From Methanosaeta sp. PtaB.Bin018 (GTDB lineage: Archaea > Halobacteriota > Methanosarcinia > Methanotrichales > Methanotrichaceae): a DNA stretch of 64,000 nucleotides. Each line of letters starts with the position of its first letter. The stretch's first letter is position 1. The DNA lies in the NCBI GenBank assembly GCA_002067755.1, contig MVQH01000077.1:1425-65424 (forward strand), read 5' to 3'. The translations under genes were made by a program, and so were the position numbers. This document shows, in pieces, positions 30,582 through 42,943 of this stretch. The notes beneath the pieces were generated by a model that did no database searches, was not told the origin of the DNA, and was given only the letters and a program-made list of their open reading frames with translations.

Positions 30582-30615
30582 TTTAAGTAAAATAAATTGA
30601 TTTTAAGTAAAATAA
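30582..30615 (+). promoter_or_regulatory. Two copies of TTTAAGTAAAATAA spaced 20 bp start-to-start, upstream of the first beta-propeller gene
   Basis: Exact 14-bp direct repeat at 30582-30595 and 30602-30615, 41-74 nt upstream of ATG 30656. Either a duplicated TATA-like element or a regulator site. Confidence 0.35.
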
Positions 30616-30655
30616 CATAGAATAACGGCTCAAATCGAGCGTCTGGGGTGCGCAG

Positions 30656-33043
30656 ATGGCTGAACAGAAACCGTCTAAGAATACGAGAGCGTTTATCACC
30701 ATTATCATATCGTCTTTGATAGCTTTCAATTCTTTGATAGCTTTCAATATTACTAACGCGTCAGACTGGCCGCTGTTCAAGAAGGATGTTTTGAACTCCG
30801 GCATAAGTTCCGATCGCGTTCCAAGCACTCCCGTGATACTGTGGTCTGCTGACATACAGAGGATGGAGACCACACCCATTATCTCCTCCGATCTGGTCTA
30901 TGCTCTTACGGGTAACGGTTCTGTCTGGGCCATTGACAAGGAGACCGGCAAATCGAGATGGCTGTCCCAGTTGGAGGGTTGGGTCTACCAGATGTCTACA
31001 CTGGCAAGCAGCGGAGAGAAAATCTTCGCTGCCACCGATTCGGGATTGCTAGCGGCCTATGATGCTCTGACAGGACGAGTGCTCTGGGTGAGGAGTCTGA
31101 CGGATAAGAGGTTCGAGGCACCAATAAACTATATAGACGGTCGGCTATACCTGGGAGAAGGAAGCGCCTACGGATCTGGCAAAAAGAGGTTCTTCTGCCT
31201 TTACGAGAACGGCACAGAGTGCTGGAATGTCTCTCGAAATACTAAGGGCTATCAATGGTGTGGGGCTGCTCAGGCTGGCAGTTATCTGGTATTCGGCCAG
31301 AATGACGGTGTCCTTTTGAGCGTGAACCGCCACAGTGGAGAGGTGGCCGATGAGCTGAGCCTGATCAACAGCTCCAGACTGAGCTTCTCTCAAGATAGAG
31401 CGGGAAGAGTTCGCGCATCCGTGGCCTTCAATGACAGCTACGTTTACGTCACATCCGAGTTCTCGGCAAAGGAAGGCTTTGCCTGGAAGATAGGCCTGGA
31501 TCCGAATACGGGCAAGTTCGAGGACCGCGGGTGGAGCTCCCCCGTGGGGTTTTCCACATCTACCCCTTCAGTCTGCAACAACCGGGTTTACATGGGCGTG
31601 GGCGAGCACGGACATCCCGGTGCCCTGGTCTGCCTTAACGATTCTTCCGGCGATCTGATCTGGTCCTATCCTGTGGAGGCAGGCGTGAAATCATCTCCAT
31701 CCGTATCGACGGCTTATGAGAAGCCTAGGATTTTATTCACCACTGCAAAGGTCGATGGCTATGTCTACTGCATAGAGGACAGTGGAGAAAAAGCTGTTCT
31801 ATTGTGGAGGTTGGATCCGCCCGATCCTGGCTACCTCTTGGGAGGCATATCCATCTCAGATGGTAGGATTTACTTCGGAACCGAGGGCGACCAACATTAC
31901 GGCAAACTGTACTGCCTTGGCGATGAATATGACGATGTTGAGGGCTGGACTCAGTTTCACAGCAACCCGCAGCATCATGGGTACAGCAGCACTAAAGCCC
32001 CCAGGTCCAACAAAACCGCCTGGATAAGCGAGGATATAGGTGCTCAGCCGGGATCTTCAGTCACTGTGGCCGAAGGATCGGTATTCGTGAATTGCGTTCA
32101 CAATCTGACCTGCCTAGATCAGAAGTCTGGAGAGGTGCTCTGGACATCTCCATTCAATGCCTCAGGAGACTATGCATTTGGATTTACCCCGGTTTACAGC
32201 AGAGGCCGGGTCTTCTTCACATCAGACAAGACTTACTGCCTGAACGCACAAGATGGCAGTGAGGTCTGGAGCTTTTCTCTGCCCACCGACAAGTTTGCAA
32301 TCGACGGTAGCCCGGCAATAGTTGACGGCAAAGCAATCGTCAGCGACTGGGATGGTCATCACTACTACTGCCTTGACGAGGTTACTGGAGAGGAACTGTG
32401 GAACTTCACCGTCGAGGGCAATGCTCAGTCTACCCCAGCCATCGACCAGGGAAGGGTGGTCTTTGGCAGCTGGGAGTGGGGCCTTGGCGGCAAGGTCTAC
32501 TGTGTCGACCTCAGAGATGGCTCAGAGATCTGGAATATGACAACCAAAAACTCACCATGCGGCTCGGCGACGATCGAGAACAAAACAGTCTACATGGCCA
32601 CCTACAACTTCGAAGGGGACGGCGATCTCCTGGCCATGACATTAGACAGCGGTTCTGTTCAATGGATGGCACAAGTAAGCCCCACCGACTCGACCCCTGT
32701 TGTGGTCGACGGGAGGGTCTATTTATGCGGAGGATGCGATGGTTTTTCCGAGCTTGTAACTTACTGCTTCGATGCGAATAGCGGCGAGCTCATATGGAGT
32801 ACATCGCCCAAAGAGAGCATCGGCGACTGGAGATGCTCTCCTGCCTTTGCTGACGGCCTGCTGTTTGTCGGAAGGCCGAATTTCATAGAGTTTAGAGGGA
32901 CTTTTGCCCTGAACGCCACTTCTGGCGAGGTGGTCTGGAGCTATCCAGAGGGAGGCTCATCTCCATCTCTGGCCGGCGGGATGCTCTTCACCATTGGCGG
33001 CGGCAGAGTCTATGCTTTTGGTGATGATTTATTGGAGGAATGA
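30656..33043 (+). CDS. Exported PQQ-like (BamB-type) beta-propeller repeat protein with two propeller modules
   Basis: 795 aa with an N-terminal hydrophobic segment. Each module opens with WP(L/Q)F..-type motifs (DWPLFKKDVLNSG; WTQFHSNPQHHG). Repeated ...G.V.A.D..TG...W blades. Confidence 0.8.
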   Translation: MAEQKPSKNTRAFITIIISSLIAFNSLIAFNITNASDWPLFKKDVLNSGISSDRVPSTPVILWSADIQRMETTPIISSDLVYALTGNGSVWAIDKETGKSRWLSQLEGWVYQMSTLASSGEKIFAATDSGLLAAYDALTGRVLWVRSLTDKRFEAPINYIDGRLYLGEGSAYGSGKKRFFCLYENGTECWNVSRNTKGYQWCGAAQAGSYLVFGQNDGVLLSVNRHSGEVADELSLINSSRLSFSQDRAGRVRASVAFNDSYVYVTSEFSAKEGFAWKIGLDPNTGKFEDRGWSSPVGFSTSTPSVCNNRVYMGVGEHGHPGALVCLNDSSGDLIWSYPVEAGVKSSPSVSTAYEKPRILFTTAKVDGYVYCIEDSGEKAVLLWRLDPPDPGYLLGGISISDGRIYFGTEGDQHYGKLYCLGDEYDDVEGWTQFHSNPQHHGYSSTKAPRSNKTAWISEDIGAQPGSSVTVAEGSVFVNCVHNLTCLDQKSGEVLWTSPFNASGDYAFGFTPVYSRGRVFFTSDKTYCLNAQDGSEVWSFSLPTDKFAIDGSPAIVDGKAIVSDWDGHHYYCLDEVTGEELWNFTVEGNAQSTPAIDQGRVVFGSWEWGLGGKVYCVDLRDGSEIWNMTTKNSPCGSATIENKTVYMATYNFEGDGDLLAMTLDSGSVQWMAQVSPTDSTPVVVDGRVYLCGGCDGFSELVTYCFDANSGELIWSTSPKESIGDWRCSPAFADGLLFVGRPNFIEFRGTFALNATSGEVVWSYPEGGSSPSLAGGMLFTIGGGRVYAFGDDLLEE
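30713..30748 (+). repeat. Perfect 18-bp tandem duplication inside the signal/anchor segment
   Basis: TCTTTGATAGCTTTCAAT occurs twice in tandem, encoding SLIAFN-SLIAFN. Confidence 0.9.
32339..32569 (+). repeat. Copy 1 of a ~231-bp near-identical segment shared by two adjacent propeller genes
   Basis: Matches 33544-33774 with 3 mismatches by eye. Encodes VSDWDGHHYYCLDEVTGEELWNFTVEGNAQSTPAIDQGRVVFGSWEWGLGGKVYCVDLRDGSEIWNMTTKNSPCGSA. Flanking sequence is far more divergent. Confidence 0.9.
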
Positions 33044-34254
33044 TAATGGAGAATTACATCGTTAAACTCGCGGGCTGGAAAACAATAGCTCTATTGATTT
33101 TCTGGCTCATCATTCAGCCTGTTGTATGTAGCAGTGACCTGGATTGGCCACAGTTCCACATGAACCCACAGCATACGGGCAACGCAAGCGTCAACGCTCC
33201 AGATGCGGCCCTTCTGGCTTGGAAGAGCGAAGCAATCGGCGCTCAGGAGGGGTCATCTGTATCGGTGGCAGAGGAGAAGGTATTCGTAAACTGCGTCAGC
33301 AATTTGACCTGTCTTGACCTGCGAACTGGAAAATTGCTATGGAGCACTGCCTTCACCCCCATGGACGATATCTGTCAGGCATTTGGCTGCTCGCCGGCAT
33401 ATCATCAAGGCAAGGTCTTTCTCTCCAGCCAAGATACCCTCTGCCTTAATGCATCTGACGGAAAGGTGCTGTGGATCTTTACACCTCCCACGAAAAGGGG
33501 TGCATTGGATGGAGGACCAGTGATAAGCGACGGCTTCGTTCTGGTCAGCGACTGGGATGGTCATCACTACTACTGCCTTGACGAGGTTACTGGAGAGGAA
33601 CTGTGGAACTTCACAGTCGAGGGCAATGCTCAGTCTACCCCAGCCATCGACCAGGGAAGAGTGGTCTTTGGCAGCTGGGAGTGGGGCCTTGGCGGCAAGG
33701 TCTACTGTGTCGACCTCAGAGATGGCTCAGAGATCTGGAATATGACAACCAAAAACTCGCCATGCGGCTCGGCTGCCATTTGGCAGAATGTGACCTGGGT
33801 TACCACTTACAACTTCGAAGGAGATGGAGAAGTCATGGCCATCTCACTCGAGGACGGGAAACTTCTCTGGGAGAGGACCATTCAGAGAACGGACTGTACC
33901 CCCACGCTTGCCAGCGGACGGCTATATGTTTGTGGTGGTGCCGATGGCTTCAGCGACAAGGTCACCTACTGCTTCGATGCCTCTAGCGGCGAACTTCTCT
34001 GGAATACTTCGAAGGAGGAGGAGATCGGCGAGTGGAGATGCTCTCCTGCCTATGCGGACGGCCTGCTGTTTGTGGGCAAGACAGATAGCAAGAGCTCCAC
34101 ATACGATACCCTCTGTGCGCTTAATGCCAGTACAGGTGATATTGTATGGAGCTATCCGGCAAGCGGATCGGCCCCGGCAGTTGCCTATGGAATGGTATTC
34201 TCCATAGGCGCAGGCAGGGTCTACGCTTTTGGGCCTGGAGGCAGCAGCACGTGA
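33040..34254 (+). CDS. Exported PQQ-like beta-propeller protein, single module, paralogous to the C-terminal half of the upstream gene
   Basis: 404 aa with an N-terminal hydrophobic segment, then DWPQFHMNPQHTGN. ATGA start/stop overlap with the upstream gene. Confidence 0.8.
   Translation: MIMENYIVKLAGWKTIALLIFWLIIQPVVCSSDLDWPQFHMNPQHTGNASVNAPDAALLAWKSEAIGAQEGSSVSVAEEKVFVNCVSNLTCLDLRTGKLLWSTAFTPMDDICQAFGCSPAYHQGKVFLSSQDTLCLNASDGKVLWIFTPPTKRGALDGGPVISDGFVLVSDWDGHHYYCLDEVTGEELWNFTVEGNAQSTPAIDQGRVVFGSWEWGLGGKVYCVDLRDGSEIWNMTTKNSPCGSAAIWQNVTWVTTYNFEGDGEVMAISLEDGKLLWERTIQRTDCTPTLASGRLYVCGGADGFSDKVTYCFDASSGELLWNTSKEEEIGEWRCSPAYADGLLFVGKTDSKSSTYDTLCALNASTGDIVWSYPASGSAPAVAYGMVFSIGAGRVYAFGPGGSST
33544..33774 (+). 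repeat. Copy 2 of the ~231-bp near-identical segment
   Basis: See 32339-32569. Confidence 0.9.
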
Positions 34255-37200
34255 GGATATCTGATGCCAAAAATTTGGGAGTCTGCATCCCTCTGATCTT
34301 TTTTTTATTTGGATTGATGATGCAGGCCAGTGCAGACTTCACCACTTTTCACGGTGATAACCAGAGGACTGGCAACGTAAGCGGCAACTATCCTGATGAA
34401 CCCCATGTTCTCTGGAGCGCGAGCCCGACAGGTCACGGCTACATTGGCGCTACAGCTGCCATATCTGGCATTAGAGTTTACATCTCCAACTGGCCGGATA
34501 TGACCTTCAAAGGGGAGCTTGGGCTTGCATGCCTGGATGAAGAAAATGGGACAGTCCTCTGGCTCAATTCGCTTGGCGGCAAAGGTGGAGCCTCAACTCC
34601 TGCCATATCGGATGACAGGGTCTTTGTCGGCTCACTTACGGGAGACCTTTACTGCCTTAACTCCACTACCGGAAAAACATTGTGGAACCGCACTCTAGAT
34701 AAAAATCCGGGGTGGTGGGGAGTGGCATCATCGCCTCTGGTTCAGGGTGAGACGGTATACGTCATGAGTTTCTCAGACGGAGCTATTCATTCTCTGGATC
34801 TGGATGGAAAGGAGATGTGGAACATGACCACGGGTCGGATTCATCCCTTCGCATCAGCTGCATCATCAGGCAGAAGGCTTTACTTCCCCGGTGGCGATCC
34901 GGCACTGTACTGCATCGATGCAACCTCAGGAGAGCTGGTATGGAAAGCCCCGCAAGAGTCTCAGATCACAGCCACCCCAGCCCTCTGGAACGATCTGGCA
35001 TTCATTGTTACTGAGAAAGCCCTTAAGGCCCTAAATGCCAGCACAGGCCAGGAGATCTGGAAGGTAGCCATCAATGGCACGATGTCTTCGCCTGCCATCT
35101 CTTTCGATAGGGTCTATGTCGGATCGGATGACGGATCCACGGGCCACTTGGCCTGCTTTAATGCCCAAAATGGCTCACAGGTTTGGAGAACGGAGGTCAA
35201 CGGCCCAGTCAGATCCTCGCCTCTGGTCGGGGATGGGAAGGTCTACTTCGGAACTAATACAGAGGCTGGAGTCATCTATTCACTGAATGCCTCCAATGGG
35301 TCTGTCGCCTGGAGCTACCCCGTCCATCAATATGTTATGGCCTCTGCTGCTGGATCCGATGGCGTCATCTTCATAGGGTCCGATGATGGCCTTCTCTACG
35401 CCTTTGGTTTTATGCCGAAGGGGCATCTCCGGAATGGAGACATTCAGCATGATGATGAATCAGTCAAATTCAATATCACAGCACACACAACTCGCCCAAA
35501 TGCACTTTTCATTACTGTAGGCAACCATCCTCAAATAGAAGTGGCCTCCCAAAATGCTGCTCTTAATGTGACCTTGGCTCCACCAACCAATGTCTCGAAC
35601 TTATCCTCTTATGACCTAATATTCCTGGAGATGCTCGGGGCAGAGGATGTTTCAAATCTTGCGCCCCTGATCGAGGATGCTAAAAAAAAAGGCGTTCCTG
35701 TAATAATACTAAACTCTGGGGGCTATGAAGACCTTGGCAATGTGAATTTATCGGATCATCCTAAAATTCAAGAATACTGGGACTACAGCGGCATTGAGAA
35801 CATGAGACGACTCTATTCCTACCTGGCAGCACGCATATTGGGCTTAAATGTCAAAGTAGAGGAGCCCGTACCCACCCCAAAAGAATACATATACCATCCA
35901 GATTCAGCTGAGATCTTCGATAACCTCTCACATTATTTGGACTGGTATGAGAATAAACCCGGACATCGTTACAATCAATCAGCTCCAACTATTGGCATAT
36001 TGAGCTATTATACAGACCTGGGACAAATAGACATTAACCGTCTCATCTCTGCCTTGGAGAGAGAGGGAGCAAACGTCATAGGCGCAGGATTCTCCAACAC
36101 ATCGACCATCAAAAGGCTCTTCTTCAAGAACGGAACGCCTATCGTAAACGCCGTGATACTCACCAAGTCCTTCCGGATAAATTATGGTGATGCAGATCAG
36201 GGTGTCTCGGATTTAGAAGACCTAAATGTTCCTGTGCTACGTGCAATGAGGTTATACTACCAGACTGCAGAGCAGTGGACAAATGCGTCCAGCATCGAGC
36301 CGATAGAGCTCTATTTCCAGGTCGCTCAGCCTGAGATGGATGGGGTCATTGAGCCCATTGTAATCTCAGGCAGAGACGAGACGATCTATGCTCCGGTGGA
36401 GAGCCAGATCGAATGGATAGCCGAACGGGCCTTAGCCTGGGCAGAGCTGGAAAGAAAGCCCGAGTCGGACAGGAAGCTGGCCATCATCTATTATAATCAC
36501 GCGGCTGGCAAGGACAACCTGGAAGGCTGCTACCTCAATGTTCCCCGCACCCTAGAGAATATCCTGGAAGGCCTGAACAGATCGCTATTCAAGGTGCAGG
36601 GAAGCATTCCAGATGAGAAGGACCTGGTAGATCTCCTGGCCCACGAGGGAACCAACATTGGATCCTGGGCCCCAGGTGAGCTTTTGTCGATGGTCGATAA
36701 GGGGAATGCAACTTTAATTCCTGCCGAAGAATACCTCTCCTGGTTTGAAACCCTGCCCGCAAACAGACAGGAGGAGACGATAAAACACTGGGGACCACCG
36801 CCAGGCGATATAATGGTCTATCAGAACGAGAGCGGAAAATATATTGTCATTCCAAAGCTCTCCTTTGGAAATGTCATTTTGCTGCCTCAGCCCACCAGAG
36901 GCTGGTTGGAGAACAATACAGTACTTTATCACTCCACCGACCTTCCTCCTCATCATCAGTACATAGCCTTCTATCTCTGGCTCAAAAATGGATTTGGCGC
37001 TGATGCCATAGTCCATCTGGGAAAACATGGGACTCAGGAGTGGCTGCCCGGCAAGGAATGCGGCATATCCAGAGATGACTGGCCTGCACTTCTCATCCAG
37101 GACCTGCCTGTGGTCTACCCATATATCGTCGACAACATTGCCGAAGGGACGCAGGCCAAGCGCAGGGGAGATGCTGTGATGGTCACCCATCTCACTCCGC

Positions 37201-39470
37201 CAATTGTTGCCTCCGGGCTATATGGCAACCTGACAAACCTTGCACAGACGGTCTTCGAATACAAGAGTGTGCAAAACGCCAGCGTGAAAGAGGGCTACAA
37301 GAGACAGATCATCAACATCAGCAGGGATATGCATCTGGACGAAGATCTTGAGGTGGATCTGAATCTTATCTCTTCAAATTCTACCAGCTTCGATGTCTAT
37401 GCAGATGATCTGGAAAGATATCTTTACGATCTTAAGAACCAGTTCATGCCATACGGACTTCACACCTTTGGCAAGCCTCCTGAGGGCAGGGCTCTGGTGG
37501 GCATGGTGAAGTCCATGCTGGGAGAGGGCCTGTCCAAAGAGGTTGCACACATGATATCATACAGCGATTATCCAAACATCACGCGCCTTGACAAGGAGAA
37601 TGAGCTCGAAAACTGCGAAACAAAGCTGCTTTCACTGGTAGTGATCAACGGGACTCTTCCTGATTATGCCCAGATGGCGGTTTTGAATAATGTCTCAAGA
37701 AACCTGTCTGATCAGCTAAATCTATCTCTGGCATATGCACAGAACATTCGAGCCTGCCAAAGAGAGGTGAGAAGCCTCGTAAGTGCCTTGGACTCCAATT
37801 ATACATCGCCTTCTCCAGCCGACGATCCTATTCGAGATCCAGAGGTTCTTCCTACCGGACGGAACTTCAGGTCACTTGATCCGCGCAGGGTGCCAACAAG
37901 TGCTGCCTGGGAGGTAGGCAAAAATCTGGCTGAAAAGATCATTGAAGAATACAGGCAGGATCACAACGGTACTTTTCCAAGAAAGCTGGCGATGGTGCTC
38001 TGGGCCTGGGCCATGACTGATCACGGTGTTGTGGAATCGGAAATCCTCTCTTTGATAGGGGCAAAGCCAGTCTATGACGGCTACGGTGGAGTGTGTGACG
38101 TAAAACTTGTACCGCTCTCCGAGCTCGGCAGGCCCAGGATAGATGTGGTGGTCGTGCCTTCAGGCCTTGACAGAGATCTGTTTCCAGAGAAGCTCCAGCT
38201 AATAGACAGAGCTATCAGACTGGCCAGCAACGACAGTAGCACAGAGTATTCCAACTTTATCCGAGAGAACTCAGAAAAGATATTCCAGGAGCTGATGGCC
38301 ACAGGAAATGTGAGCGAGAGTGATGCACGAATCCTATCCACCTCCAGGATATTCCTGGAAGAGGCAGGGACATACGGTCCCAACCTCGACGCTGCAATAT
38401 CTGCCAGCAATGCCTGGGAGAATGACACAGTGCTTGGCAACCTCTTCATAAAGAGGATGTCTTACATCTACGGCGATGGGATCTGGAGCAGCAAGCTGGC
38501 CTCCGGAGAGGACCTATCTCCCTTGCAAGAGGATCTATACAAGACCAATCTTCAGGAGGTAGAGGCAGCAGTCCATCACACCAACTCCAACCTCTACGGA
38601 TTCATAGACAACGACGACGTCCTCCAGTACCTGGGAGGCATAGGGCTGGCGGTGAGAACTGTCAGTGGAAAAACACCTGATATGTACGTCACCGATGCCA
38701 GAGATCCTGAAAGCACAGCAGTATCATCGTTACACAACTTTTTCTCCAAGGAGCTTCGGGCACGTTACTACAATCCTCAGTGGATCAAAGGGATGATGGA
38801 GCAGGGCTACTCAGGTGCCAGGGAGATGGACAAGTTCGTTGAAAACCTGTGGGGCTGGGAGGCTATGCTTCCCGATATGGTCTCTGAGGCTGTCTGGAAT
38901 GAGGTGCATGATGTCTATGTAAGGGACAAGTATGATCTCGGCATGAAACAGTTCTTTGACCAGAACAATCCCTGGGCATCTCAGGCCCTCGAAGGGAGAA
39001 TGCTCGAGACTGCCAGGAAATGTAGGTGGCACCCAGACCAGGCTACAAAGGCAGATCTAGTCCGGGAGTACCAACGATCGGTAAAGGATTTTGGTGTGAC
39101 CTGCTGTCACCACACCTGCGGCAACCTACTGCTAAACGAGTACATGAGTGGAATTCTCCCTGCACAAGACAGACAAGACGGCTCCAGACAGAGCGACTCG
39201 AAGCCAAGCCATAAAAGCTCCTCGTCCAAACGCTCCTCTCCAGGGGGCGCTTCTGGACGCTTCAACACAACGAAGTCGAGCGGTGTGGGCACAGCGTCCG
39301 CAAAGCCTGTGGAAAAGACACAGTCAGCCTCAGAAGAAGTGCAGGGCATGGTCATGGAAAGCCCTTCGAACGACATCTCTCTGCCATCCATTTCTGGCGC
39401 GCCGCTCATGGGTGTGGCCTTGGTGCTTGTCATGTTGCTGTTCATGATCGCAGGATTCAGGAGAGGCTGA
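34251..39470 (+). CDS. Exported fusion protein: PQQ-like beta-propeller, then a CobN/ChlH-type (class I) chelatase large-subunit domain, then a Ser-rich linker and a C-terminal TM anchor
   Basis: A GTG at 34251 (GTGA overlap with the upstream stop) gives the signal-like (M)RISDAKNLGVCIPLIFFLFGLMMQASA. The propeller module starts FTTFHGDNQRTGN. The CobN-type core includes HLGKHGTQEWLPGKE, DPIRDPEVLPTGRNF and AVHHTNSNLYGFIDNDD. The C-terminus is SSSSKRSS...PLMGVALVLVMLLFMIAGFRRG. I count about 35-40 N-x-S/T sequons by eye along the whole length. Confidence 0.85.
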   Translation: MRISDAKNLGVCIPLIFFLFGLMMQASADFTTFHGDNQRTGNVSGNYPDEPHVLWSASPTGHGYIGATAAISGIRVYISNWPDMTFKGELGLACLDEENGTVLWLNSLGGKGGASTPAISDDRVFVGSLTGDLYCLNSTTGKTLWNRTLDKNPGWWGVASSPLVQGETVYVMSFSDGAIHSLDLDGKEMWNMTTGRIHPFASAASSGRRLYFPGGDPALYCIDATSGELVWKAPQESQITATPALWNDLAFIVTEKALKALNASTGQEIWKVAINGTMSSPAISFDRVYVGSDDGSTGHLACFNAQNGSQVWRTEVNGPVRSSPLVGDGKVYFGTNTEAGVIYSLNASNGSVAWSYPVHQYVMASAAGSDGVIFIGSDDGLLYAFGFMPKGHLRNGDIQHDDESVKFNITAHTTRPNALFITVGNHPQIEVASQNAALNVTLAPPTNVSNLSSYDLIFLEMLGAEDVSNLAPLIEDAKKKGVPVIILNSGGYEDLGNVNLSDHPKIQEYWDYSGIENMRRLYSYLAARILGLNVKVEEPVPTPKEYIYHPDSAEIFDNLSHYLDWYENKPGHRYNQSAPTIGILSYYTDLGQIDINRLISALEREGANVIGAGFSNTSTIKRLFFKNGTPIVNAVILTKSFRINYGDADQGVSDLEDLNVPVLRAMRLYYQTAEQWTNASSIEPIELYFQVAQPEMDGVIEPIVISGRDETIYAPVESQIEWIAERALAWAELERKPESDRKLAIIYYNHAAGKDNLEGCYLNVPRTLENILEGLNRSLFKVQGSIPDEKDLVDLLAHEGTNIGSWAPGELLSMVDKGNATLIPAEEYLSWFETLPANRQEETIKHWGPPPGDIMVYQNESGKYIVIPKLSFGNVILLPQPTRGWLENNTVLYHSTDLPPHHQYIAFYLWLKNGFGADAIVHLGKHGTQEWLPGKECGISRDDWPALLIQDLPVVYPYIVDNIAEGTQAKRRGDAVMVTHLTPPIVASGLYGNLTNLAQTVFEYKSVQNASVKEGYKRQIINISRDMHLDEDLEVDLNLISSNSTSFDVYADDLERYLYDLKNQFMPYGLHTFGKPPEGRALVGMVKSMLGEGLSKEVAHMISYSDYPNITRLDKENELENCETKLLSLVVINGTLPDYAQMAVLNNVSRNLSDQLNLSLAYAQNIRACQREVRSLVSALDSNYTSPSPADDPIRDPEVLPTGRNFRSLDPRRVPTSAAWEVGKNLAEKIIEEYRQDHNGTFPRKLAMVLWAWAMTDHGVVESEILSLIGAKPVYDGYGGVCDVKLVPLSELGRPRIDVVVVPSGLDRDLFPEKLQLIDRAIRLASNDSSTEYSNFIRENSEKIFQELMATGNVSESDARILSTSRIFLEEAGTYGPNLDAAISASNAWENDTVLGNLFIKRMSYIYGDGIWSSKLASGEDLSPLQEDLYKTNLQEVEAAVHHTNSNLYGFIDNDDVLQYLGGIGLAVRTVSGKTPDMYVTDARDPESTAVSSLHNFFSKELRARYYNPQWIKGMMEQGYSGAREMDKFVENLWGWEAMLPDMVSEAVWNEVHDVYVRDKYDLGMKQFFDQNNPWASQALEGRMLETARKCRWHPDQATKADLVREYQRSVKDFGVTCCHHTCGNLLLNEYMSGILPAQDRQDGSRQSDSKPSHKSSSSKRSSPGGASGRFNTTKSSGVGTASAKPVEKTQSASEEVQGMVMESPSNDISLPSISGAPLMGVALVLVMLLFMIAGFRRG

Positions 39471-39557: not shown

Positions 39558-40250
39558 TTGGTGTCCTCATTGGAGCTCTCATCGATTACTGTTAGTGGTA
39601 TCTTGATAGGCATTCTTATCTTTGCATTTAAAGTCAGCCTTGGCTGTGGCATGGCCTGCCTCAGCCGTCGTGAAACTCTGTTAATAGCTCTCAGCTATAT
39701 GGCACTGGCCAGCCTGATGGGTGTCATCATTGGATTCATACCGAATTCGGTCTTCTTTTGGCTGCTGAACGCTGGGGTGGCCATGCATGCCGTCATCGCC
39801 TTGCTACTGGTCACCTTGGGCGTGATTACTGCTAGGGAATGGAACCGTGAAGGCCATGATATCTCTCGTCGCACCTTCTGGGCCCTGTCCTTTCCCTGTC
39901 CGGCCTGCATGGCCGCAACTTTCCTATCCTGTAGCTTTCTTGTAGGCGTTTTAAATGTTGCCTCTTGGATGATAGGCCTTGCCGTGGGAGCGGTCTTTCT
40001 CGTATCCATCATCGGGCTATCTGAGCTGTTTCGAAAGAGTCACAGGACGCCATCTGATATGGGCAATGCCATGATATTTCTAGGGCTTTTTTATATTTTA
40101 TCAATGCTGGTCATCCCTGCTTACCTCGGCTCTAAAATAGCTTCAACGCCTTCGGAGATGCCCTCAGTAAATGCTGTCTACATTTATGGATTTCTTTTTG
40201 GAATGGTGCTTCTGGGATACCTGAGCAGGAGGATGGGGGTCGCCAAATGA
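39558..40250 (+). CDS. Polytopic membrane protein (DUF2162-like predicted transporter) with an intramembrane CPAC motif
   Basis: 230 aa with ~6 hydrophobic segments. SFPCPACMAATFLSC is encoded at 39897-39908. TTG start as tracked. The DUF2162 assignment is from memory of methanogen annotations. Confidence 0.6.
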   Translation: MVSSLELSSITVSGILIGILIFAFKVSLGCGMACLSRRETLLIALSYMALASLMGVIIGFIPNSVFFWLLNAGVAMHAVIALLLVTLGVITAREWNREGHDISRRTFWALSFPCPACMAATFLSCSFLVGVLNVASWMIGLAVGAVFLVSIIGLSELFRKSHRTPSDMGNAMIFLGLFYILSMLVIPAYLGSKIASTPSEMPSVNAVYIYGFLFGMVLLGYLSRRMGVAK

Positions 40251-40888
40251 TGGGCATCTACGATACATGCGAATACATGCTCTATGTATTCTCAGATGCC
40301 ATGCTTTATCCAGATATGATCGGGCTGATCCTCCTATTTGGCTGGTCTCTAACCCTGGTAGGATCGATGGTTCATGATTTCACCACCCGTAATAGAGATC
40401 TCGAGAAGATTGAGGAGATATGTTTTCAGGCGGCGGGTCTTGTGCGATCTGGCCGGACGGATCAGGCTGCAGCAAAGCTCGGCAGCTATGGGTCCAAGAC
40501 GCTTGTCTCCCGGGTTTTAAAGGAGATGGGAGATGCCATTTTGGTTGGGACCTTCCACCTGAAGTTCGAGAAGATTTTGCAGGATGCAGAGATCAGCATA
40601 GACAAATCACTTGAGCTCATTCGGATCGGTGTCAGGATAGGACCAATGCTGGGGCTGATGGGAACACTGATACCCCTGGGACCAGCACTTCTTGGCCTGG
40701 CTCAAGGCAATATCAAGCAGCTTTCAGACAGCCTGGTGATAGCTTTCACCACCACTGTGGTGGGCATAGTGGTGGGAGGGATATGCTACTGTGTTGCGAC
40801 AATAAGGACGCGATGGTACCGTCAGGACTTGAGCGATCTGGAGTATGCAGTCGACATCCTCAGGAGCGAGATTGATGAGGGGGCGTAG
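40247..40888 (+). CDS. MotA/TolQ/ExbB-family proton channel protein
   Basis: C-terminal signature GPMLGLMGTLIPLGPALLGLA...SDSLVIAFTTTVVGIVVG. ATGA overlap with the upstream gene. Confidence 0.8.
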   Translation: MMGIYDTCEYMLYVFSDAMLYPDMIGLILLFGWSLTLVGSMVHDFTTRNRDLEKIEEICFQAAGLVRSGRTDQAAAKLGSYGSKTLVSRVLKEMGDAILVGTFHLKFEKILQDAEISIDKSLELIRIGVRIGPMLGLMGTLIPLGPALLGLAQGNIKQLSDSLVIAFTTTVVGIVVGGICYCVATIRTRWYRQDLSDLEYAVDILRSEIDEGA

Positions 40889-41231
40889 GTATTTCAGCGA
40901 GGCTGCTCCATGGAATGAGGACCCCATGAGCGGGCTGTCTAATATCTTCGACGCTGCCATGGTCTTTGCTCTTGGGTTCTTGCTGGCGCTAGCAGTCTCG
41001 TACAGCATCCAAGAGATGCTCGATCCTCAAAGCACAGTGACTTTGGTCAAGAATCCAGGAGATCCCGATATGCAGATAATCATCAAGGACATGGATAAAA
41101 TTCAGGTGCTGAACATGACCGACAAGATTGCTGGAGGACAGGGCACAAAGATGGGAACAGCCTATCGCCTGGAGAACGGGCAGGTGGTCTATGTGCCGGA
41201 GAACGCCACTTCGCCCTCAGTTCAGAGTTAG
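40875..41231 (+). CDS. Single-pass membrane protein (DUF2149-like), ExbD/TolR-like in topology
   Basis: ATG 40875 overlaps the ExbB-like gene by 14 nt. The TM segment LSNIFDAAMVFALGFLLALAV carries an Asp at its start, as ExbD/TolR do. A ~80-aa extracytoplasmic domain follows. Confidence 0.55.
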   Translation: MRGRRYFSEAAPWNEDPMSGLSNIFDAAMVFALGFLLALAVSYSIQEMLDPQSTVTLVKNPGDPDMQIIIKDMDKIQVLNMTDKIAGGQGTKMGTAYRLENGQVVYVPENATSPSVQS

Positions 41232-41422: not shown

Positions 41423-42943
41423 ATGAAACATTTGGCTTTGGCGCTATTTTGCGTTTTTTTACTTACACTCACAACAGCATCGGCAGAGGTAACGGCTCAA
41501 ATAACTGTTTTTTGTAATGGAGGTGTAGTCTACGACAATGCTGTGACGGTTACTGGTTCGAATCCCACTGCCTGGGACGCCATTCGGGCAAGTGATGTGG
41601 GCTATGATTATACCGACTATGGTGGATGGATTTTTATAAATAGCATTGCAGGATGCGGCGGAAGCTGGGGCCCCGCATTTTATGTAAATGGAGCCGAGTC
41701 CGATGTAGGCGTCAACAGTTACTACATAGAAGATGGCGATCATCTTCAGTTCATTGGGCCGAACAATGGCGGACCGACAGCAGGCATCCTGTATCTTGCT
41801 GTGCTTCCGGATGTTGTAGCCAAAGGCGAAGGCTTCAGGGTCAAAGTAATGGAAAAATCTGCATACTCATATGGGGGCTATGATCGCCCATCAGCAGGCG
41901 CAACAGTCACCATAGGCAATGAGACCTTCGATACAGGCAGCGACGGCTACACAGACGAGATCGTCCTCGACTATGACGCCTATTATTGCGTAGCCGCAGA
42001 GAAGGGCGGATATGTGGCCACATATTACTTTTATGGCCTTCCGTATATTCAGTGTGGAGTTGGAGGGCCCTACATTTGTAGCGTTACTGGCGAAGGGTCG
42101 AAGAGAGGAAATATAAAGTACGACGAAGACTCATCGGTCAGCGGCGAAGGGTTCTGTTCGTGCCGATCCTACTTTGAAAATTATGGCGGAAAATATCCAG
42201 CACGCTCGACAAAGGCTTACCAAAAGGGATCTGGAAGCTACGACGCTGAGAGAATTATCAAGCAGAGGCCGAGTGGAATCGACCTCAGCGAATCAACGGA
42301 GATGAATTATCGTCCGACCACAGTTGAGGCTTATAGCCGGGATCTTAACTACAAATCCAATTACGAGGACAGCATATACCAGAAGAATTATCGTGGAGCC
42401 ACAGAATCCTCCGAGAGATATCGCCAACTGAATTCCCTTACGAAGACGAGCTATTATAACAATAGCCGAGGAATCAATTACTCTTTCACGGCGAACTTTC
42501 AGGGAATAGCTGAACTGTCTGCACGCACCCTTGAGGACGAGGCCTTCTTGGACTGGAGAGAAAAGGCTCGGCCTAAGGAAGAGTCTATTGAGACTTACAT
42601 CGGCAACTTCCAAATTTCCCGAAGAGGTTTTCTCCCGATGGGTGGGAACGATGAAACGGATTGCGAAGAGGACTGCAAATGGAATTGTAAAAAGCATTGC
42701 ATGGAGGACGAGGGATATAGCGAGGAGTACTGCGAAGAGCATTGCGGTGAGTATTGCGAAGATTATTGCGAGAACGAATCTACCTATGAGGATTATGAGC
42801 TTTTACCATGCTGTAGCGGTGGATGGTTCAATATGACAAAGGCAGATCAGATTGGACATTCTGCCAAAGGCATCTTCGATTGCTCCTGCAAAATTACTGC
42901 GGCTCCAGTATTGATCGGCAAGAAGGCCAGTTCGAAGGCATAA
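41423..42943 (+). CDS. Secreted DUF4430-domain protein (transcobalamin beta-domain-like) with Ig-like middle region and a Cys/Glu-rich C-terminal region
   Basis: Signal MKHLALALFCVFLLTLTTASA. DUF4430-like block TAWDAIRAS...YGGWIFINSIAG...WGPAFYVNGAESDVGVNSYYIEDGDHLQF. Then CEEDCKWNCKKHC...YCEEHCGEYCEDYC. Confidence 0.65.
   Translation: MKHLALALFCVFLLTLTTASAEVTAQITVFCNGGVVYDNAVTVTGSNPTAWDAIRASDVGYDYTDYGGWIFINSIAGCGGSWGPAFYVNGAESDVGVNSYYIEDGDHLQFIGPNNGGPTAGILYLAVLPDVVAKGEGFRVKVMEKSAYSYGGYDRPSAGATVTIGNETFDTGSDGYTDEIVLDYDAYYCVAAEKGGYVATYYFYGLPYIQCGVGGPYICSVTGEGSKRGNIKYDEDSSVSGEGFCSCRSYFENYGGKYPARSTKAYQKGSGSYDAERIIKQRPSGIDLSESTEMNYRPTTVEAYSRDLNYKSNYEDSIYQKNYRGATESSERYRQLNSLTKTSYYNNSRGINYSFTANFQGIAELSARTLEDEAFLDWREKARPKEESIETYIGNFQISRRGFLPMGGNDETDCEEDCKWNCKKHCMEDEGYSEEYCEEHCGEYCEDYCENESTYEDYELLPCCSGGWFNMTKADQIGHSAKGIFDCSCKITAAPVLIGKKASSKA

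What the first reader, a model, noticed from the sequence alone, without database searches (positions are those of the whole stretch)
34251..39470. CobN/ChlH-type chelatase domain that appears to be extracytoplasmic, propeller-fused and membrane-anchored
The ~1740-aa product has four parts:
- a signal-like N-terminus;
- a ~400-aa PQQ-like propeller;
- a full-length CobN-type core with signatures such as HLGKHGTQEWLPGKE;
- a Ser-rich linker and one C-terminal TM helix ending in RRG.

By eye I count about 35-40 N-x-S/T sequons spread over both the propeller and the chelatase part. That is several times more than composition alone would predict, and it is typical of glycosylated archaeal surface proteins. 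Characterised CobN and ChlH proteins are cytoplasmic and depend on ATP through AAA+ partners. An exported one implies a different energy source or a non-chelatase role, such as tetrapyrrole binding or hand-off.
Basis: partly seen in the sequence, partly recalled or inferred. Interest (0 to 1): 0.75.

Follow-up and report, generated by a model that had tools for sequence, protein, structure and literature searches.

The report
Surface-exposed archaeal CobN-type chelatase module
A methane-producing archaeon (Methanothrix group) encodes a large metal-chelatase-type enzyme that sits outside the cell, next to genes for a proton-driven membrane motor; it is an archaeal variant of a bacterial heme-iron-harvesting system, and its substrate is unknown.

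Summary
Window 34251-39470 (+) encodes a 1739-aa protein with five parts:
- a signal peptide;
- a ~400-aa PQQ-like propeller;
- a full-length CobN/ChlH domain (Pfam E=0);
- a Ser-rich linker;
- one C-terminal TM helix ending in RRG.

It has 39 N-x-S/T sequons against 12.7 ± 3.2 expected. Density is about 5-10 times that of cytoplasmic proteins in the same window.

An exported, ATP-independent CobN relative is already known: HmuS/BtuS heme dechelatase of Bacteroidota, which is the best PDB match. The three genes after the chelatase encode DUF2162, an ExbB-like protein and DUF2149. The last two are clear homologues of HmuU and HmuV (33% and 45% identity). All six archaeal loci I examined that carry DUF2149 have this trio beside an exported CobN, so a proton-motive energy source is plausible.

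It is not an HmuS orthologue. The HmuS-specific His/Glu motif and the heme ligands are absent. The active site is CobN-type (H926, E965, D1455-D1456), and DUF2162 shows no detectable homology to HmuT.

Neighbouring genes encode secreted propellers and transcobalamin-like domains. Related loci add Feo, ZIP, CorA or cbi genes.

Most likely this is a surface metal/tetrapyrrole salvage machine. Substrate and reaction direction are unresolved. It is a new variant of a known kind.

The parts
30656..33043 (+). Secreted double PQQ-like beta-propeller protein (795 aa); first gene of the putative operon
   Evidence: Pfam PQQ_2 and Beta-prop_ACSF4. Hydrophobic N-terminus. 15 sequons vs 5.4 expected. Its end overlaps the next gene by 4 nt.
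33040..34254 (+). [quoted passage not shown]
   Evidence: Pfam PQQ_2. 64% identical to aa 431-789 of the 795-aa protein. 8 sequons vs 2.3 expected.
34251..39470 (+). The finding: the propeller-CobN fusion protein, 1739 aa
34251..34334 (+). Signal peptide (aa 1-28): basic n-region, h-region aa 9-27, 'QASA|DF'
   Evidence: Hydropathy. The same 'A-x-A | D-[FY]' arrangement occurs in nearly all homologues. Cleavage is inferred, not shown.
34335..35525 (+). PQQ-like (BamB-like) beta-propeller, aa ~29-425
   Evidence: Pfam and NCBIfam. PDB sequence matches to propellers. 11 sequons vs 3.7 expected.
35526..39125 (+). Class I chelatase (CobN/ChlH/HmuS) body, aa ~426-1625 (domains I-VI)
   Evidence: PF02514 full length, E=0. 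PDB matches: HmuS 9d26 E 9e-158, ChlH 4zhj E 8e-139, CobN 7c6o E 4e-135.
37014..37031 (+). HLGKHG motif (aa 922-927). H926 corresponds to HmuS H538 and CobN H554.
   Evidence: Alignments. Residue roles are taken from PMC12583661 and bioRxiv 10.64898/2026.07.21.739949.
37143..37145 (+). E965 in 'NIAEGTQAKRR', equivalent to CobN E593
   Evidence: Position relative to H926, counted by hand as 39 residues downstream, the same spacing as CobN H554 to E593. Motif conserved in the family. Role in CobN.
38607..38618 (+). D1453-N-D1455-D1456 of 'FIDNDDVLQYLGG'. This is the CobN-type acidic motif at the position where HmuS has LSLDH(1209)xxE(1212)FMGG.
   Evidence: Residue-level alignments to HmuS and to two CobN structures. 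Family survey.
39102..39125 (+). Conserved 'CCHHTCGN' Cys/His motif just after domain VI (aa 1618-1625); candidate metal site
   Evidence: Present as [GV]-[TA]-CCHHTC-[GA]-N in about 54 of 65 family members and in distant exported archaeal CobN homologues. HmuS has 'SCSGFVCDN' there. A metal-binding role is inferred only.
39126..39395 (+). Ser/Thr-rich linker (aa 1626-1715) ending in the juxtamembrane 'GMVME...PSISGAPL' motif
   Evidence: 29% Ser+Thr. 'VME' and 'SGAP' are conserved in the family. Bacteroidota HmuS has 'G[VM]VMKKEE' at the same place.
39396..39470 (+). C-terminal TM helix plus the RRG tail (aa 1716-1739), and the stop codon
   Evidence: Hydropathy. Conserved across the family.
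39558..40250 (+). DUF2162 polytopic membrane protein (230 aa). It occupies the position of HmuT but is not detectably homologous to it.
   Evidence: Pfam E 5e-52. Near-invariant P113-C114-P115. AF2 model pLDDT 89, 8 helices, with no PDB fold match. hhalign against HmuT gives 35% probability, last helix only.
40247..40888 (+). MotA/TolQ/ExbB-family protein (213 aa); homologue of Bacteroidota HmuU
   Evidence: Pfam PF01618. 33% identity, E 3e-36 to B. thetaiotaomicron HmuU. E 4e-8 to E. coli ExbB. Matches the HmuU ORF of 74 Bacteroidota loci.
40845..41231 (+). DUF2149 protein (128 aa): one TM helix with an invariant Asp (D36) plus an outside domain; homologue of HmuV
   Evidence: Pfam E 2.5e-31. 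45% identity, E 9e-29 to HmuV. Invariant D36 in alignment A1. TM helix aa 27-56 in the AF2 model.
41423..42943 (+). Secreted 506-aa protein with a borderline DUF4430 (transcobalamin C-terminal-like) match
   Evidence: Pfam E 2e-4, 22.0 bits vs cutoff 23.8. DUF4430 is fused to the propeller and/or CobN in relatives P0050, P0055, P0062, P0064, P0072, P0073 and P0080. DUF4430 is the C-terminal domain of transcobalamins (PMC4350170).
42945..43949 (+). Secreted or anchored 334-aa protein with prenyltransferase / squalene-cyclase-type alpha/alpha-toroid repeats
   Evidence: Pfam SQHop_cyclase_C and Prenyltrans. PDB sequence matches. The same domain types sit beside propeller-CobN genes in L084 and L088.

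Best explanation
The gene encodes an N-glycosylated, surface-exposed class I chelatase homologue of a Methanothrix-group methanogen. It is tethered to the membrane by its C-terminal helix and has a CobN-type active site.

With the three membrane proteins encoded right after it, it forms an archaeal counterpart of the Bacteroidota HmuS-T-U-V module. Those proteins are DUF2162, an ExbB-like HmuU homologue and a DUF2149 HmuV homologue.

Proposed mechanism:
1. Secreted propellers, the fused propeller, and transcobalamin-like DUF4430 and alpha/alpha-toroid proteins capture an exogenous metallo-tetrapyrrole (corrinoid, heme or a Ni/Co porphyrinoid).
2. The chelatase body removes or exchanges the metal in the cleft lined by H926, E965 and D1455-D1456.
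3. The metal passes to membrane importers. Candidates are DUF2162, with its PCPxC motif, or Feo/ZIP/CorA-type transporters encoded beside relatives.
4. Instead of an AAA+ ATPase, the ExbB-like/DUF2149 pair uses the proton-motive force. It probably acts through the conserved C-terminal tail and helix that follow chelatase domain VI.

Shown here: the domain anatomy, the topology signals, the sequon excess, homology to HmuS, HmuU and HmuV, conserved gene linkage, and the active-site residue states.

Inferred: actual glycosylation, the substrate, the direction of the reaction, and coupling to the proton-motive force.
For: Anatomy and topology.

Homology to the Hmu system:
- HmuS is the best solved-structure match.
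- In B. thetaiotaomicron locus L004 the gene order is HmuY, HmuR, HmuS (CobN domain), HmuT, HmuU (MotA_ExbB), HmuV (DUF2149).
- The window proteins match HmuU at E 3e-36 and HmuV at E 9e-29, and match the corresponding ORFs of 74 Bacteroidota loci.

Gene linkage in archaea. DUF2162, MotA_ExbB and DUF2149 lie beside an exported CobN in all six archaeal loci that carry DUF2149, in varying order and orientation:
- the window;
- L083, L086 and L088 (Methanothrix-type);
- L089, Methanofollis;
- L090, Ca. Syntrophoarchaeum.

These organisms have no outer membrane or TonB-dependent receptor for an ExbB-like motor to serve.

Active site: the catalytic-core residues are conserved.

C-terminal tail: the 'G-x-V-M-E ... 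TM ... basic' motif is shared with Bacteroidota HmuS. In CobNST the motor adaptor CobT grips domain VI, the domain that this tail directly follows.

DUF2149: an invariant Asp lies in its single TM helix. hhalign places it opposite ExbD D25.

Metal and tetrapyrrole context:
- FeoA, FeoB and a DtxR-type repressor directly after a paralogue (L001).
- ZIP (L086).
- CorA, plus ZnuABC and DtxR nearby (L089).
- cbi genes (L090).
- Ahb-like genes (L002).
- DUF4430 and toroid proteins.

Literature:
- HmuS is periplasmic and ATP-independent (PMC12583661, PMC13227078).
[quoted passage not shown] I could not check whether that protein is of the exported type.
Against: - No experiment exists on any archaeal member.
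- The HmuS-family motif LSLDHxxEFMGG (H1209, E1212) and the head/neck heme ligands M79 and H254 are not conserved. Heme dechelation by the HmuS mechanism therefore cannot simply be transferred.
- A CobN-type acidic site could equally mean metal insertion.
- DUF2162 is not detectably related to HmuT.
- DUF2149 homology to ExbD is not significant (hhalign probability 0.5%). Its AF2 model is poor (pLDDT 56).
- Of the eight archaeal loci with a window-family CobN (fused, or unfused as in L084), only four have the trio within 10 kb: the window, L083, L086 and L088. L001, L002, L084 and L087 lack it.
- The role of HmuU/V is unknown even in Bacteroidota. There it is currently drawn as powering HmuR or as an inner-membrane transporter.
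- The DUF4430 match in the window is below Pfam's cutoff.
Confidence: 0.5

Rival explanations
1. It is a true HmuS orthologue. It would be a heme dechelatase that strips Fe(II) from environmental heme outside the cell and feeds FeoB, as in Bacteroides.
For: - Best PDB match is HmuS.
- Same outside-facing, C-terminally anchored topology.
- HmuU and HmuV homologues are adjacent.
- A paralogue is followed by FeoA-FeoB-DtxR (L001).
- An Argoarchaeum relative lies next to Ahb-type heme-synthesis-like genes (L002).
Against: - Only 29.6% identity over 1122 aligned residues.
- HmuS H1209 and E1212 are Asp and Gln here. The head/neck heme ligands M79 and H254 are Leu and Ser.
- No HmuY, HmuR or HmuT homologue is present.
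- A different archaeal exported CobN, M. maripaludis P0066, does carry the HmuS-type 'DHVYEF' motif. The two types are therefore distinct lineages.
Confidence: 0.2
2. It is a corrinoid-directed enzyme. It would be a surface cobalt chelatase or dechelatase that salvages or remodels exogenous corrinoids, or harvests their cobalt. Transcobalamin-like proteins would act as the binders.
For: - CobN-type metal-site motif 'DNDD..QY.GG', against CobN 'DSDDYYQFEGG'.
- Conserved H926/E965/D1455, equivalent to CobN H554/E593/D1100.
- DUF4430 and alpha/alpha-toroid proteins are in the operon and are fused to relatives. DUF4430 is the transcobalamin C-terminal domain.
- In Ca. Syntrophoarchaeum the module sits directly upstream of cbi genes.
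Against: - No cobalamin riboswitch or any other Rfam element in the window.
- The window DUF4430 hit is sub-threshold.
- No corrinoid transporter (BtuCDF or ECF-CbrT type) was seen in the operon.
- The Feo and ZIP neighbours of paralogues point to other metals.
Confidence: 0.2
3. It is what the databases call it: cobaltochelatase subunit CobN, the cytoplasmic, ATP-dependent CobNST enzyme of B12 biosynthesis.
For: - Named 'cobaltochelatase subunit CobN' in several sources.
- Best NCBIfam model is a CobN model, NF004645.
- The active-site motif is CobN-type.
Against: - Scores are below every NCBIfam equivalog cutoff: 1223 vs 1619 for NF004645, and 629 vs 822 for TIGR02257.
- Signal peptide, C-terminal TM helix and a 3-fold sequon excess across all domains.
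- No CobS/CobT or ChlI/ChlD gene among the window ORFs scanned.
- Methanogens use the anaerobic, CbiX-dependent pathway (PMC3087415).
Confidence: 0.03
4. It is a nickel (or general soft-metal) acquisition device. The chelatase fold and the CCHHTC motif would capture or mobilise Ni, Co or Fe from complexes in sulfidic habitats, not necessarily from tetrapyrroles. DUF2162 (PCPxC motif) would import the metal.
For: [quoted passage not shown]
- Conserved Cys/His motif after domain VI.
- PCPxC motif in DUF2162.
- CorA, ZIP, Feo and CDF neighbours.
Against: - It is unknown whether CobN1 is the exported, HmuUV-linked type.
- Every characterised member of the superfamily acts on a tetrapyrrole.
- Conservation of the whole tetrapyrrole-cleft core argues for a macrocycle substrate.
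Confidence: 0.1

Closest known systems
HmuS / BtuS2 heme dechelatase with HmuT-U-V (Bacteroides thetaiotaomicron, B. fragilis, Porphyromonas gingivalis; PDB 9d26)
   Same: - CobN-superfamily body facing away from the cytoplasm.
- C-terminal TM anchor preceded by a 'G-V-V-M-[EK]' motif.
- No AAA+ partner.
- Adjacent ExbB-like (HmuU) and DUF2149 (HmuV) genes that are clearly homologous.
   Different: - Archaeal, with no outer membrane and no HmuY or HmuR.
- N-terminal cleavable-looking signal peptide plus a fused beta-propeller, instead of an N-terminal anchor.
- HmuS H1209/E1212 and M79/H254 are not conserved.
- DUF2162 replaces HmuT.
- Dense sequons.
- About 30% identity.
CobN of the aerobic cobaltochelatase CobNST (PDB 9uk9, 7c6o)
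   Same: Full-length domain architecture I-VI. The putative metal-site residues are the same: H554/E593/D1100 correspond to H926/E965/D1455. The 'D-[SN]-D-D-x-x-Q-[FY]-x-G-G' motif is shared.
   Different: CobN is cytoplasmic and is driven by the CobS AAA+ ring through CobT, which docks on domain VI. This protein is exported, has extra N- and C-terminal modules and no such partners nearby, and scores below the CobN equivalog cutoffs.
ChlH/BchH of magnesium chelatase (PDB 4zhj)
   Same: Superfamily fold, and the conserved His and Glu of the cleft.
   Different: ChlH reads 'LTDVSHYFDSD' in the domain V motif region. It is cytoplasmic or plastidic, ATP-dependent, and acts on protoporphyrin IX with Mg.
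ExbB-ExbD(-TonB), TolQ-TolR and MotA-MotB proton-driven stator units
   Same: An ExbB-family protein (E 4e-8 to E. coli ExbB) is paired with a small single-TM protein that carries an invariant Asp near the start of its helix. A third protein has a single TM helix and a long flexible linker, which recalls TonB. That ExbD D25, TolR D23 and MotB D32 are the proton-binding residues is from my own knowledge.
   Different: DUF2149 is not significantly similar to ExbD. There is no outer-membrane receptor or flagellum to drive. The TonB analogy for the chelatase tail is inference only.
Transcobalamin / intrinsic factor (alpha6/alpha6 barrel plus DUF4430 beta-domain); BtuG beta-propeller B12 binder of Bacteroides
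   Same: The operon and its relatives combine DUF4430, alpha/alpha-toroid and beta-propeller modules on the cell surface.
   Different: Only domain-family resemblance, and the window's DUF4430 hit is borderline. The BtuG comparison is from memory and was not tested. No ligand evidence exists.

Membership tests
Class I chelatase large-subunit superfamily (CobN/ChlH/BchH/HmuS; Pfam PF02514) | Full-length match to the CobN-Mg_chel profile | tested here: met
   aa 508-1599 against model positions 2-1089 of 1090, E=0, 1127 bits.
Class I chelatase large-subunit superfamily (CobN/ChlH/BchH/HmuS; Pfam PF02514) | Superfamily-invariant His of the HxGxHG loop (HmuS H538, CobN H554) and the cleft Glu (CobN E593) | tested here: met
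   H926 in 'HLGKHG' and E965 in 'NIAEGTQAKRR'. Both are conserved in the family. Residue roles. The E965-to-E593 equivalence rests on a hand count of residue spacing.
Canonical cobaltochelatase CobN (CobNST) | Score above the curated equivalog cutoff of a CobN model | tested here: not met
   NF004645 1223 < 1619; NF004644 878 < 1248; TIGR02257 629 < 822.
Canonical cobaltochelatase CobN (CobNST) | Cytoplasmic protein working with AAA+ CobS and VWA CobT | tested here: not met
   Signal peptide, C-terminal TM helix and sequon excess. No AAA+ or VWA chelatase subunit among the window ORFs scanned. The rest of the genome could not be checked.
Canonical cobaltochelatase CobN (CobNST) | Domain V acidic motif D-S-D-D-x-x-Q-F-x-G-G containing D1100 | tested here: met
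   'IDNDDVLQYLGG' aligns with 'LDSDDYYQFEGG' (9uk9) and 'ADSDDYFQYHGG' (7c6o).
HmuS/BtuS heme dechelatase family | Extracytoplasmic, membrane-anchored CobN homologue | tested here: met
   Topology signals and sequons. The anchor is C-terminal only if the signal peptide is cleaved. Localisation was not shown experimentally.
HmuS/BtuS heme dechelatase family | LSLDHxxEFMGG motif with axial His-1209 and Glu-1212 (strictly conserved in HmuS, PMC12583661) | tested here: not met
   D1456 and Q1459 occupy these positions. All 75 Bacteroidota HmuS ORFs that matched the motif search have 'LSLDHV[YF]EFMGG', and none of the window family does.
HmuS/BtuS heme dechelatase family | Head/neck heme site Met-79 / His-254 | tested here: not met
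   Leu and Ser at the aligned positions.
HmuS/BtuS heme dechelatase family | Encoded with HmuU (MotA/ExbB family) and HmuV (DUF2149) | tested here: met
   E 3e-36 and E 9e-29 to the B. thetaiotaomicron proteins. Linkage is conserved in 6 of 6 archaeal DUF2149 loci.
HmuS/BtuS heme dechelatase family | Encoded with HmuT, HmuY and HmuR | tested here: not met
   DUF2162 vs HmuT: no BLAST or phmmer match, and hhalign probability 35% over one helix. No HmuY or TonB-dependent receptor in the window.
HmuS/BtuS heme dechelatase family | Reductant-dependent conversion of heme to protoporphyrin IX plus Fe(II) | not testable with these tools
   Needs biochemistry.
ExbB-ExbD / TolQ-TolR / MotA-MotB type proton-motive stator (for the partner genes) | MotA_ExbB-family channel subunit | tested here: met
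   PF01618 E 4e-10. BLASTP E 4e-8 to E. coli ExbB over the full length.
ExbB-ExbD / TolQ-TolR / MotA-MotB type proton-motive stator (for the partner genes) | ExbD/TolR/MotB-like partner: single TM helix with an essential Asp | tested here: inconclusive
   DUF2149 has one confident TM helix and an invariant D36 in it. hhalign puts D36 opposite ExbD D25, but at 0.5% probability. A profile search of the PDB found nothing.
N-glycosylated archaeal surface proteins | Sec-type signal peptide and sequon enrichment relative to composition and to cytoplasmic proteins of the same genome | tested here: met
   39 vs 12.8 +/- 3.2. 2.24 per 100 aa against 0-0.5 for most cytoplasmic proteins. Family median ratio 3.2.
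N-glycosylated archaeal surface proteins | Glycans actually attached; known C-terminal sorting signal (PGF-CTERM and the like) | tested here: inconclusive
   No NCBIfam model matches the C-terminal 45 aa at E<=10. Glycosylation itself is not testable here.

The most novel reading that the evidence does not exclude
This would be a class I chelatase whose AAA+ ATPase motor has been replaced by a proton-motive ExbB/ExbD-like stator. The motor would pull on the enzyme's C-terminal tail, just after domain VI, which is the same 'handle' that CobT grips in CobNST. That would drive metal extraction from, or insertion into, tetrapyrroles outside the cell. It would also mean that HmuU/V in Bacteroidota serve HmuS rather than the TonB-dependent receptor HmuR, and that methanogens harvest Ni, Co or Fe from environmental tetrapyrroles at their surface.
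Probability: 0.3. Interest if true: 0.85.

Novelty: new variant of a known kind. Interest (0 to 1): 0.55.

Why it matters
Methanogens need unusually large amounts of Fe, Ni and Co, and they live where these metals are locked up as sulfides. How they acquire them is poorly known.

The paper that established HmuS as a dechelatase states that it is unclear how Archaea use their many HmuS/CobN/ChlH homologues (PMC12583661). This locus makes that question testable in three ways.

- The archaeal proteins are surface enzymes.
- They come with the same ExbB-like/DUF2149 pair as HmuS, although the organism has no outer membrane.
- They occur in at least two active-site types: CobN-like here, and HmuS-like in Methanococcus.

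The linkage in an organism without an outer membrane also argues that HmuU/V work with the chelatase or the cytoplasmic membrane step, not with a TonB-dependent receptor. That would change the current drawing of the bacterial Hmu system.

On the practical side, hundreds of such genes are annotated as 'cobaltochelatase subunit CobN' or 'BamB', which is probably wrong.

Tried and rejected
1. AlphaFold2 of the DUF2149 protein with 35 sequences gave pLDDT 56, with only the TM helix confident. I therefore ran no fold search. A profile search of PDB sequences found nothing.
2. hhalign of DUF2149 against E. coli ExbD aligned only the TM segment, at 0.5% probability. Homology is not claimed.
3. DUF2162 against HmuT: BLASTP, phmmer and hhalign (55 vs 76 sequences) found no credible relationship.
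4. The DUF2162 AF2 model is good (pLDDT 89), but Foldseek against the PDB gave no hit below E 0.1. Fusions of DUF2162 are only to TPR repeats and are uninformative.
5. Rfam on the whole window found no riboswitch or other RNA.
6. NCBIfam on the C-terminal 45 aa found no known sorting signal.
7. The DUF2149 homologue search returned only close archaeal relatives. I therefore fetched the Bacteroides locus with an HmuS fragment read from the PDB alignment.
8. Literature searches for an archaeal exported CobN, or for CobN with ExbB or DUF2149 in archaea, found nothing beyond the remark in PMC12583661. Haloferax CobN is cytosolic and not relevant.
9. The idea that the sequon excess merely reflects Asn/Ser/Thr-rich composition is rejected by the shuffles and the composition-based expectation.
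10. I looked for an iron-box or other operator upstream of the operon only superficially. No conclusion.

Full report
**1. What is there**

The open frame runs 34146-39470 (+). It is also the start of an identical 1739-aa metagenome protein, P0001.

Closest named relatives are 55-70% identical and come from Methanothrix/Methanosaeta and Methanotrichaceae. The rest of the window is archaeal and methanogen-like: SepRS, Pus10, DUF2114, archaeal eRF1.

Pfam finds a PQQ_2/BamB-type beta-propeller in the first ~400 residues. It finds a complete CobN-Mg_chel domain at aa 508-1599, covering model positions 2-1089 of 1090, with E=0.

Only two hydrophobic segments exist. One is aa 9-27, followed by 'QASA|DF'. 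The other is aa ~1717-1736, followed by RRG. The 90 residues before the last helix are 29% Ser+Thr.

**2. Sequons**

There are 39 N-x(not P)-S/T sites. Shuffles of the same protein give 12.8 ± 3.2, with a maximum of 27 in 2000.

| Domain | Observed | Expected |
|---|---|---|
| Propeller | 11 | 3.7 |
| CobN domains I-II | 9 | 2.3 |
| CobN domains III-IV | 13 | 2.8 |
| CobN domains V-VI | 5 | 2.7 |

Density is 2.24 per 100 aa. Most cytoplasmic enzymes in the window have 0-0.5, for example SepRS 0, SHMT 0.24 and POR 0.36, with a few short proteins higher. The other signal-peptide proteins have 1.6-3.3.

All 65 family members show the same excess, with ratios of 2.5-4.3. They also share the same signal peptide and the same C-terminal 'PSISGAPL-TM-GFRRR' end.

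The whole polypeptide apart from the tail is best read as extracytoplasmic and under selection for N-glycosylation. Glycosylation itself is inferred.

**3.

The best solved-structure match is not CobN or ChlH. It is the HmuS heme dechelatase of Bacteroides thetaiotaomicron (9d26, E 9e-158). ChlH 4zhj scores 8e-139 and CobN 7c6o scores 4e-135.

- HmuS (= BtuS2) is anchored by N- and C-terminal helices.
- It faces the periplasm.
- It needs reductant but not ATP.
- It is encoded with HmuT (membrane protein), HmuU (MotA/TolQ/ExbB family) and HmuV ('no known family').

These points come from PMC12583661, PMC13227078 and PMC12094164.

An exported, ATP-independent CobN homologue is therefore a known kind of thing. 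The same paper says that many archaeal homologues exist and that their use is unclear.

**4. The neighbours**

Directly after the chelatase gene come three membrane-protein genes:

| Window coordinates | Family |
|---|---|
| 39558-40250 | DUF2162 |
| 40247-40888 | MotA_ExbB |
| 40845-41231 | DUF2149 |

I fetched the B. thetaiotaomicron hmu locus (L004) and annotated it. The order is HmuY, TonB-dependent HmuR, HmuS, a 233-aa membrane protein (HmuT), a MotA_ExbB protein (HmuU) and a DUF2149 protein (HmuV).

- The window ExbB-like protein is 33% identical to HmuU (E 3e-36).
- The window DUF2149 protein is 45% identical to HmuV (E 9e-29).
- Both match the corresponding ORFs in 74 Bacteroidota loci.
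- DUF2162 and HmuT share position and size but no detectable homology.

The linkage is conserved in archaea, with varying order and orientation.

| Locus | Organism or type | Arrangement |
|---|---|---|
| L088 | Methanothrix-type | Same order as the window |
| L083, L086 | Methanothrix-type | Trio divergent from the chelatase gene |
| L089 | Methanofollis | Trio upstream of an unfused exported CobN |
| L090 | Ca. Syntrophoarchaeum | Trio upstream of an unfused exported CobN |

The L089 and L090 CobN proteins also have a signal peptide, a C-terminal TM helix and a sequon excess. That makes 6 of 6 archaeal loci with DUF2149.

Conversely, only 4 of 8 loci with a window-family CobN carry the trio within 10 kb. 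L001, L002, L084 and L087 lack it. These genomes hold several paralogues, which may share one trio. That is inference.

**5. It is not an HmuS orthologue**

Identity to HmuS is 29.6% over 1122 aligned positions.

The superfamily-wide His (H926 in HLGKHG) and the cleft Glu (E965) are present.

The motif that defines the HmuS family is LSLDHxxEFMGG, with the proposed axial ligand H1209 and its partner E1212. Here it reads 'FIDNDDVLQYLGG'. That aligns residue for residue with CobN 'LLDSDDYYQFEGG' and 'IADSDDYFQYHGG'.

CobN D1100, one of three residues named at the two-Co2+ site of the CobNST cryo-EM structure (H554, E593, D1100), corresponds to D1455.

All 75 Bacteroidota HmuS ORFs that matched the motif search have the His form. 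None of the window family does.

The HmuS head/neck heme ligands M79 and H254 are Leu and Ser here.

Two further observations came from the same alignment.
- The exported CobN homologue of Methanococcus maripaludis C6 (P0066) carries the HmuS-type 'FDHVYEFYGG'.
- The Methanofollis protein has lost the HxGxHG loop.

Exported archaeal CobN proteins therefore fall into at least two active-site classes, and possibly an inactive one.

Against NCBIfam, the protein scores best on a 'CobN' model built on long archaeal proteins (NF004645). It stays below every equivalog cutoff.

**6. Further conserved features**

- A 'GVTCCHHTCGN' motif lies just after domain VI, at aa 1618-1625. It is present in about 54 of 65 family members and in distant exported archaeal homologues. 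HmuS has 'SCSGFVCDN' there. It is a candidate metal site.
- The tail carries a juxtamembrane 'G-x-V-M-E' motif 15-25 residues before the helix. The same motif, 'G[VM]VMKKEE', precedes the C-terminal helix of Bacteroidota HmuS. The tail is therefore more than a passive anchor.
- DUF2149 has one confident TM helix with an invariant Asp, D36, in 'N-x-F-D-x-A-M-V-F-A'.
- hhalign places D36 opposite ExbD D25, but without statistical support.
- The ExbB-like protein matches E. coli ExbB at E 4e-8.
- DUF2162 is a small family: 104 representatives among 1.84 billion proteins. It has a near-invariant P-C-P(-x-C) in a helix. Its 8-helix model is confident (pLDDT 89) and matches no solved fold.

**7. Context that bears on the substrate**

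Upstream in the same putative operon are two secreted propeller proteins.

Downstream are a secreted protein with a borderline DUF4430 match and a secreted alpha/alpha-toroid protein of prenyltransferase/squalene-cyclase type.

DUF4430 is the C-terminal domain of transcobalamins (PMC4350170).

The same three domain types recur beside, or fused to, propeller-CobN genes:
- P0050, P0055, P0062 and P0064: propeller + DUF4430 + CobN;
- P0080: propeller + toroid + DUF4430;
- large toroid/DUF4430/CLIPPER proteins in L084 and L088.

Metal-related neighbours of relatives:
- FeoA-FeoB plus a DtxR-type repressor directly after a paralogue (L001);
- ZIP (L086);
- CorA, with ZnuABC and DtxR nearby (L089);
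- cbi genes (L090);
- AhbA/B-like and radical-SAM genes (L002).

No Rfam element occurs in the window.

[quoted passage not shown] I could not check whether it is of this exported type.

**8. Most likely mechanism**

Shown:
- a surface-facing CobN-type enzyme;
- an intact catalytic core;
- genetic coupling to an ExbB-like/DUF2149 pair in organisms that have no outer membrane.

Inferred:
- The secreted propellers and transcobalamin-like proteins deliver an exogenous metallo-tetrapyrrole.
- The chelatase extracts or exchanges its metal.
- The metal enters through DUF2162 or Feo/ZIP/CorA-type carriers.
- The ExbB-like/DUF2149 unit supplies proton-motive energy through the chelatase's C-terminal tail.

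That tail follows domain VI, the domain gripped by the motor adaptor CobT in CobNST.

The CobN-type acidic site leaves the direction open, so insertion cannot be excluded. The context is split between Fe, Co and Ni.

I put 0.5 on the general model. I put about 0.2 each on the heme-iron and corrinoid versions, and 0.03 on the database annotation as canonical CobN.

**9. Novelty and score**

The kind is known: an exported CobN homologue with HmuU/V. This family has the following features:
- archaeal and propeller-fused;
- heavily sequon-decorated;
- CobN-type active site;
- DUF2162 in place of HmuT;
- transcobalamin-like accessories;
- no outer-membrane parts.

The literature I could search does not describe it. 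In the databases it is annotated as CobN or BamB.

It is a new variant of a known kind. It makes an explicitly stated open question testable, and it bears on what HmuU/V do in bacteria. Interest 0.55.

Noticed in passing
window 29811-30275 (-) and 30285-30326: An IS200-like transposase (Y1_Tnp, E 6e-36) lies about 380 bp upstream of the operon's first gene. An 18-nt imperfect hairpin (83% complementary) lies next to it and may be the element's end.
   Followed up: no
window 30582-30625: The direct repeat 'TTTAAGTAAAATAA' occurs twice, about 30-70 nt upstream of the first propeller gene's ATG (30656). It could be a duplicated TATA-like promoter or an operator. I made no comparison with other loci.
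   Followed up: no
window 32236-32535 vs 33441-33740: The two free propeller genes are tandem paralogues, 64% identical overall. They share an 86-aa stretch that is 100% identical, running from 'VSDWDGHHYYCLDEVTGEELWNF' to 'TTKNSPCGSA'. This suggests recent gene conversion.
   Followed up: partly
window 39102-39125 (aa 1618-1625): A 'CCHHTCGN' Cys/His motif after chelatase domain VI is conserved in exported archaeal CobN homologues from several orders. It lies outside the Pfam CobN domain. B. thetaiotaomicron HmuS has 'SCSGFVCDN' there.
   Followed up: partly
P0066 (Methanococcus maripaludis C6, 1800 aa): This is an exported CobN homologue fused to CarboxypepD_reg/Ig-like domains rather than a propeller. 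It carries the HmuS-type 'FDHVYEFYGG' motif, so it is a better candidate for an archaeal heme dechelatase than the window protein. The organism is genetically tractable.
   Followed up: partly
L089 10579-15534 (Methanofollis sp.): The HmuTUV-linked exported CobN here lacks the HxGxHG loop and has 'LEHPMVAAYFGG' in the domain V motif. It may be a catalytically dead paralogue or a different chemistry.
   Followed up: no
window 26619-28547 (-) and 28678-29418 (+): Two proteins with hydrophobic N-termini and a 2.8- to 4.1-fold sequon excess match no Pfam, NCBIfam or PDB sequence family. They are presumably further surface glycoproteins of unknown function.
   Followed up: partly
window 45796-47894 and L002 4940-7064: SHMT and FolD genes lie within a few kb of the propeller-CobN gene in both the window and the Ca. 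Argoarchaeum locus. This may be residual synteny or coincidence.
   Followed up: no
window 39558-40250 (DUF2162): A confident AlphaFold model (pLDDT 89, 8 helices) has no similar solved structure (best Foldseek E 0.13). The family is rare, with 104 representatives at 50% clustering, and has a near-invariant intramembrane P-C-P motif. Some members are fused to TPR repeats.
   Followed up: yes
L084 10001-14503 (P0045): The called protein starts inside the last blade of a propeller ('VFDGVLYIGSDDGCLYAFG'), and a 1.1-kb uncalled gap precedes it. It is probably a split or frameshifted propeller-CobN gene rather than a genuinely unfused one.
   Followed up: no
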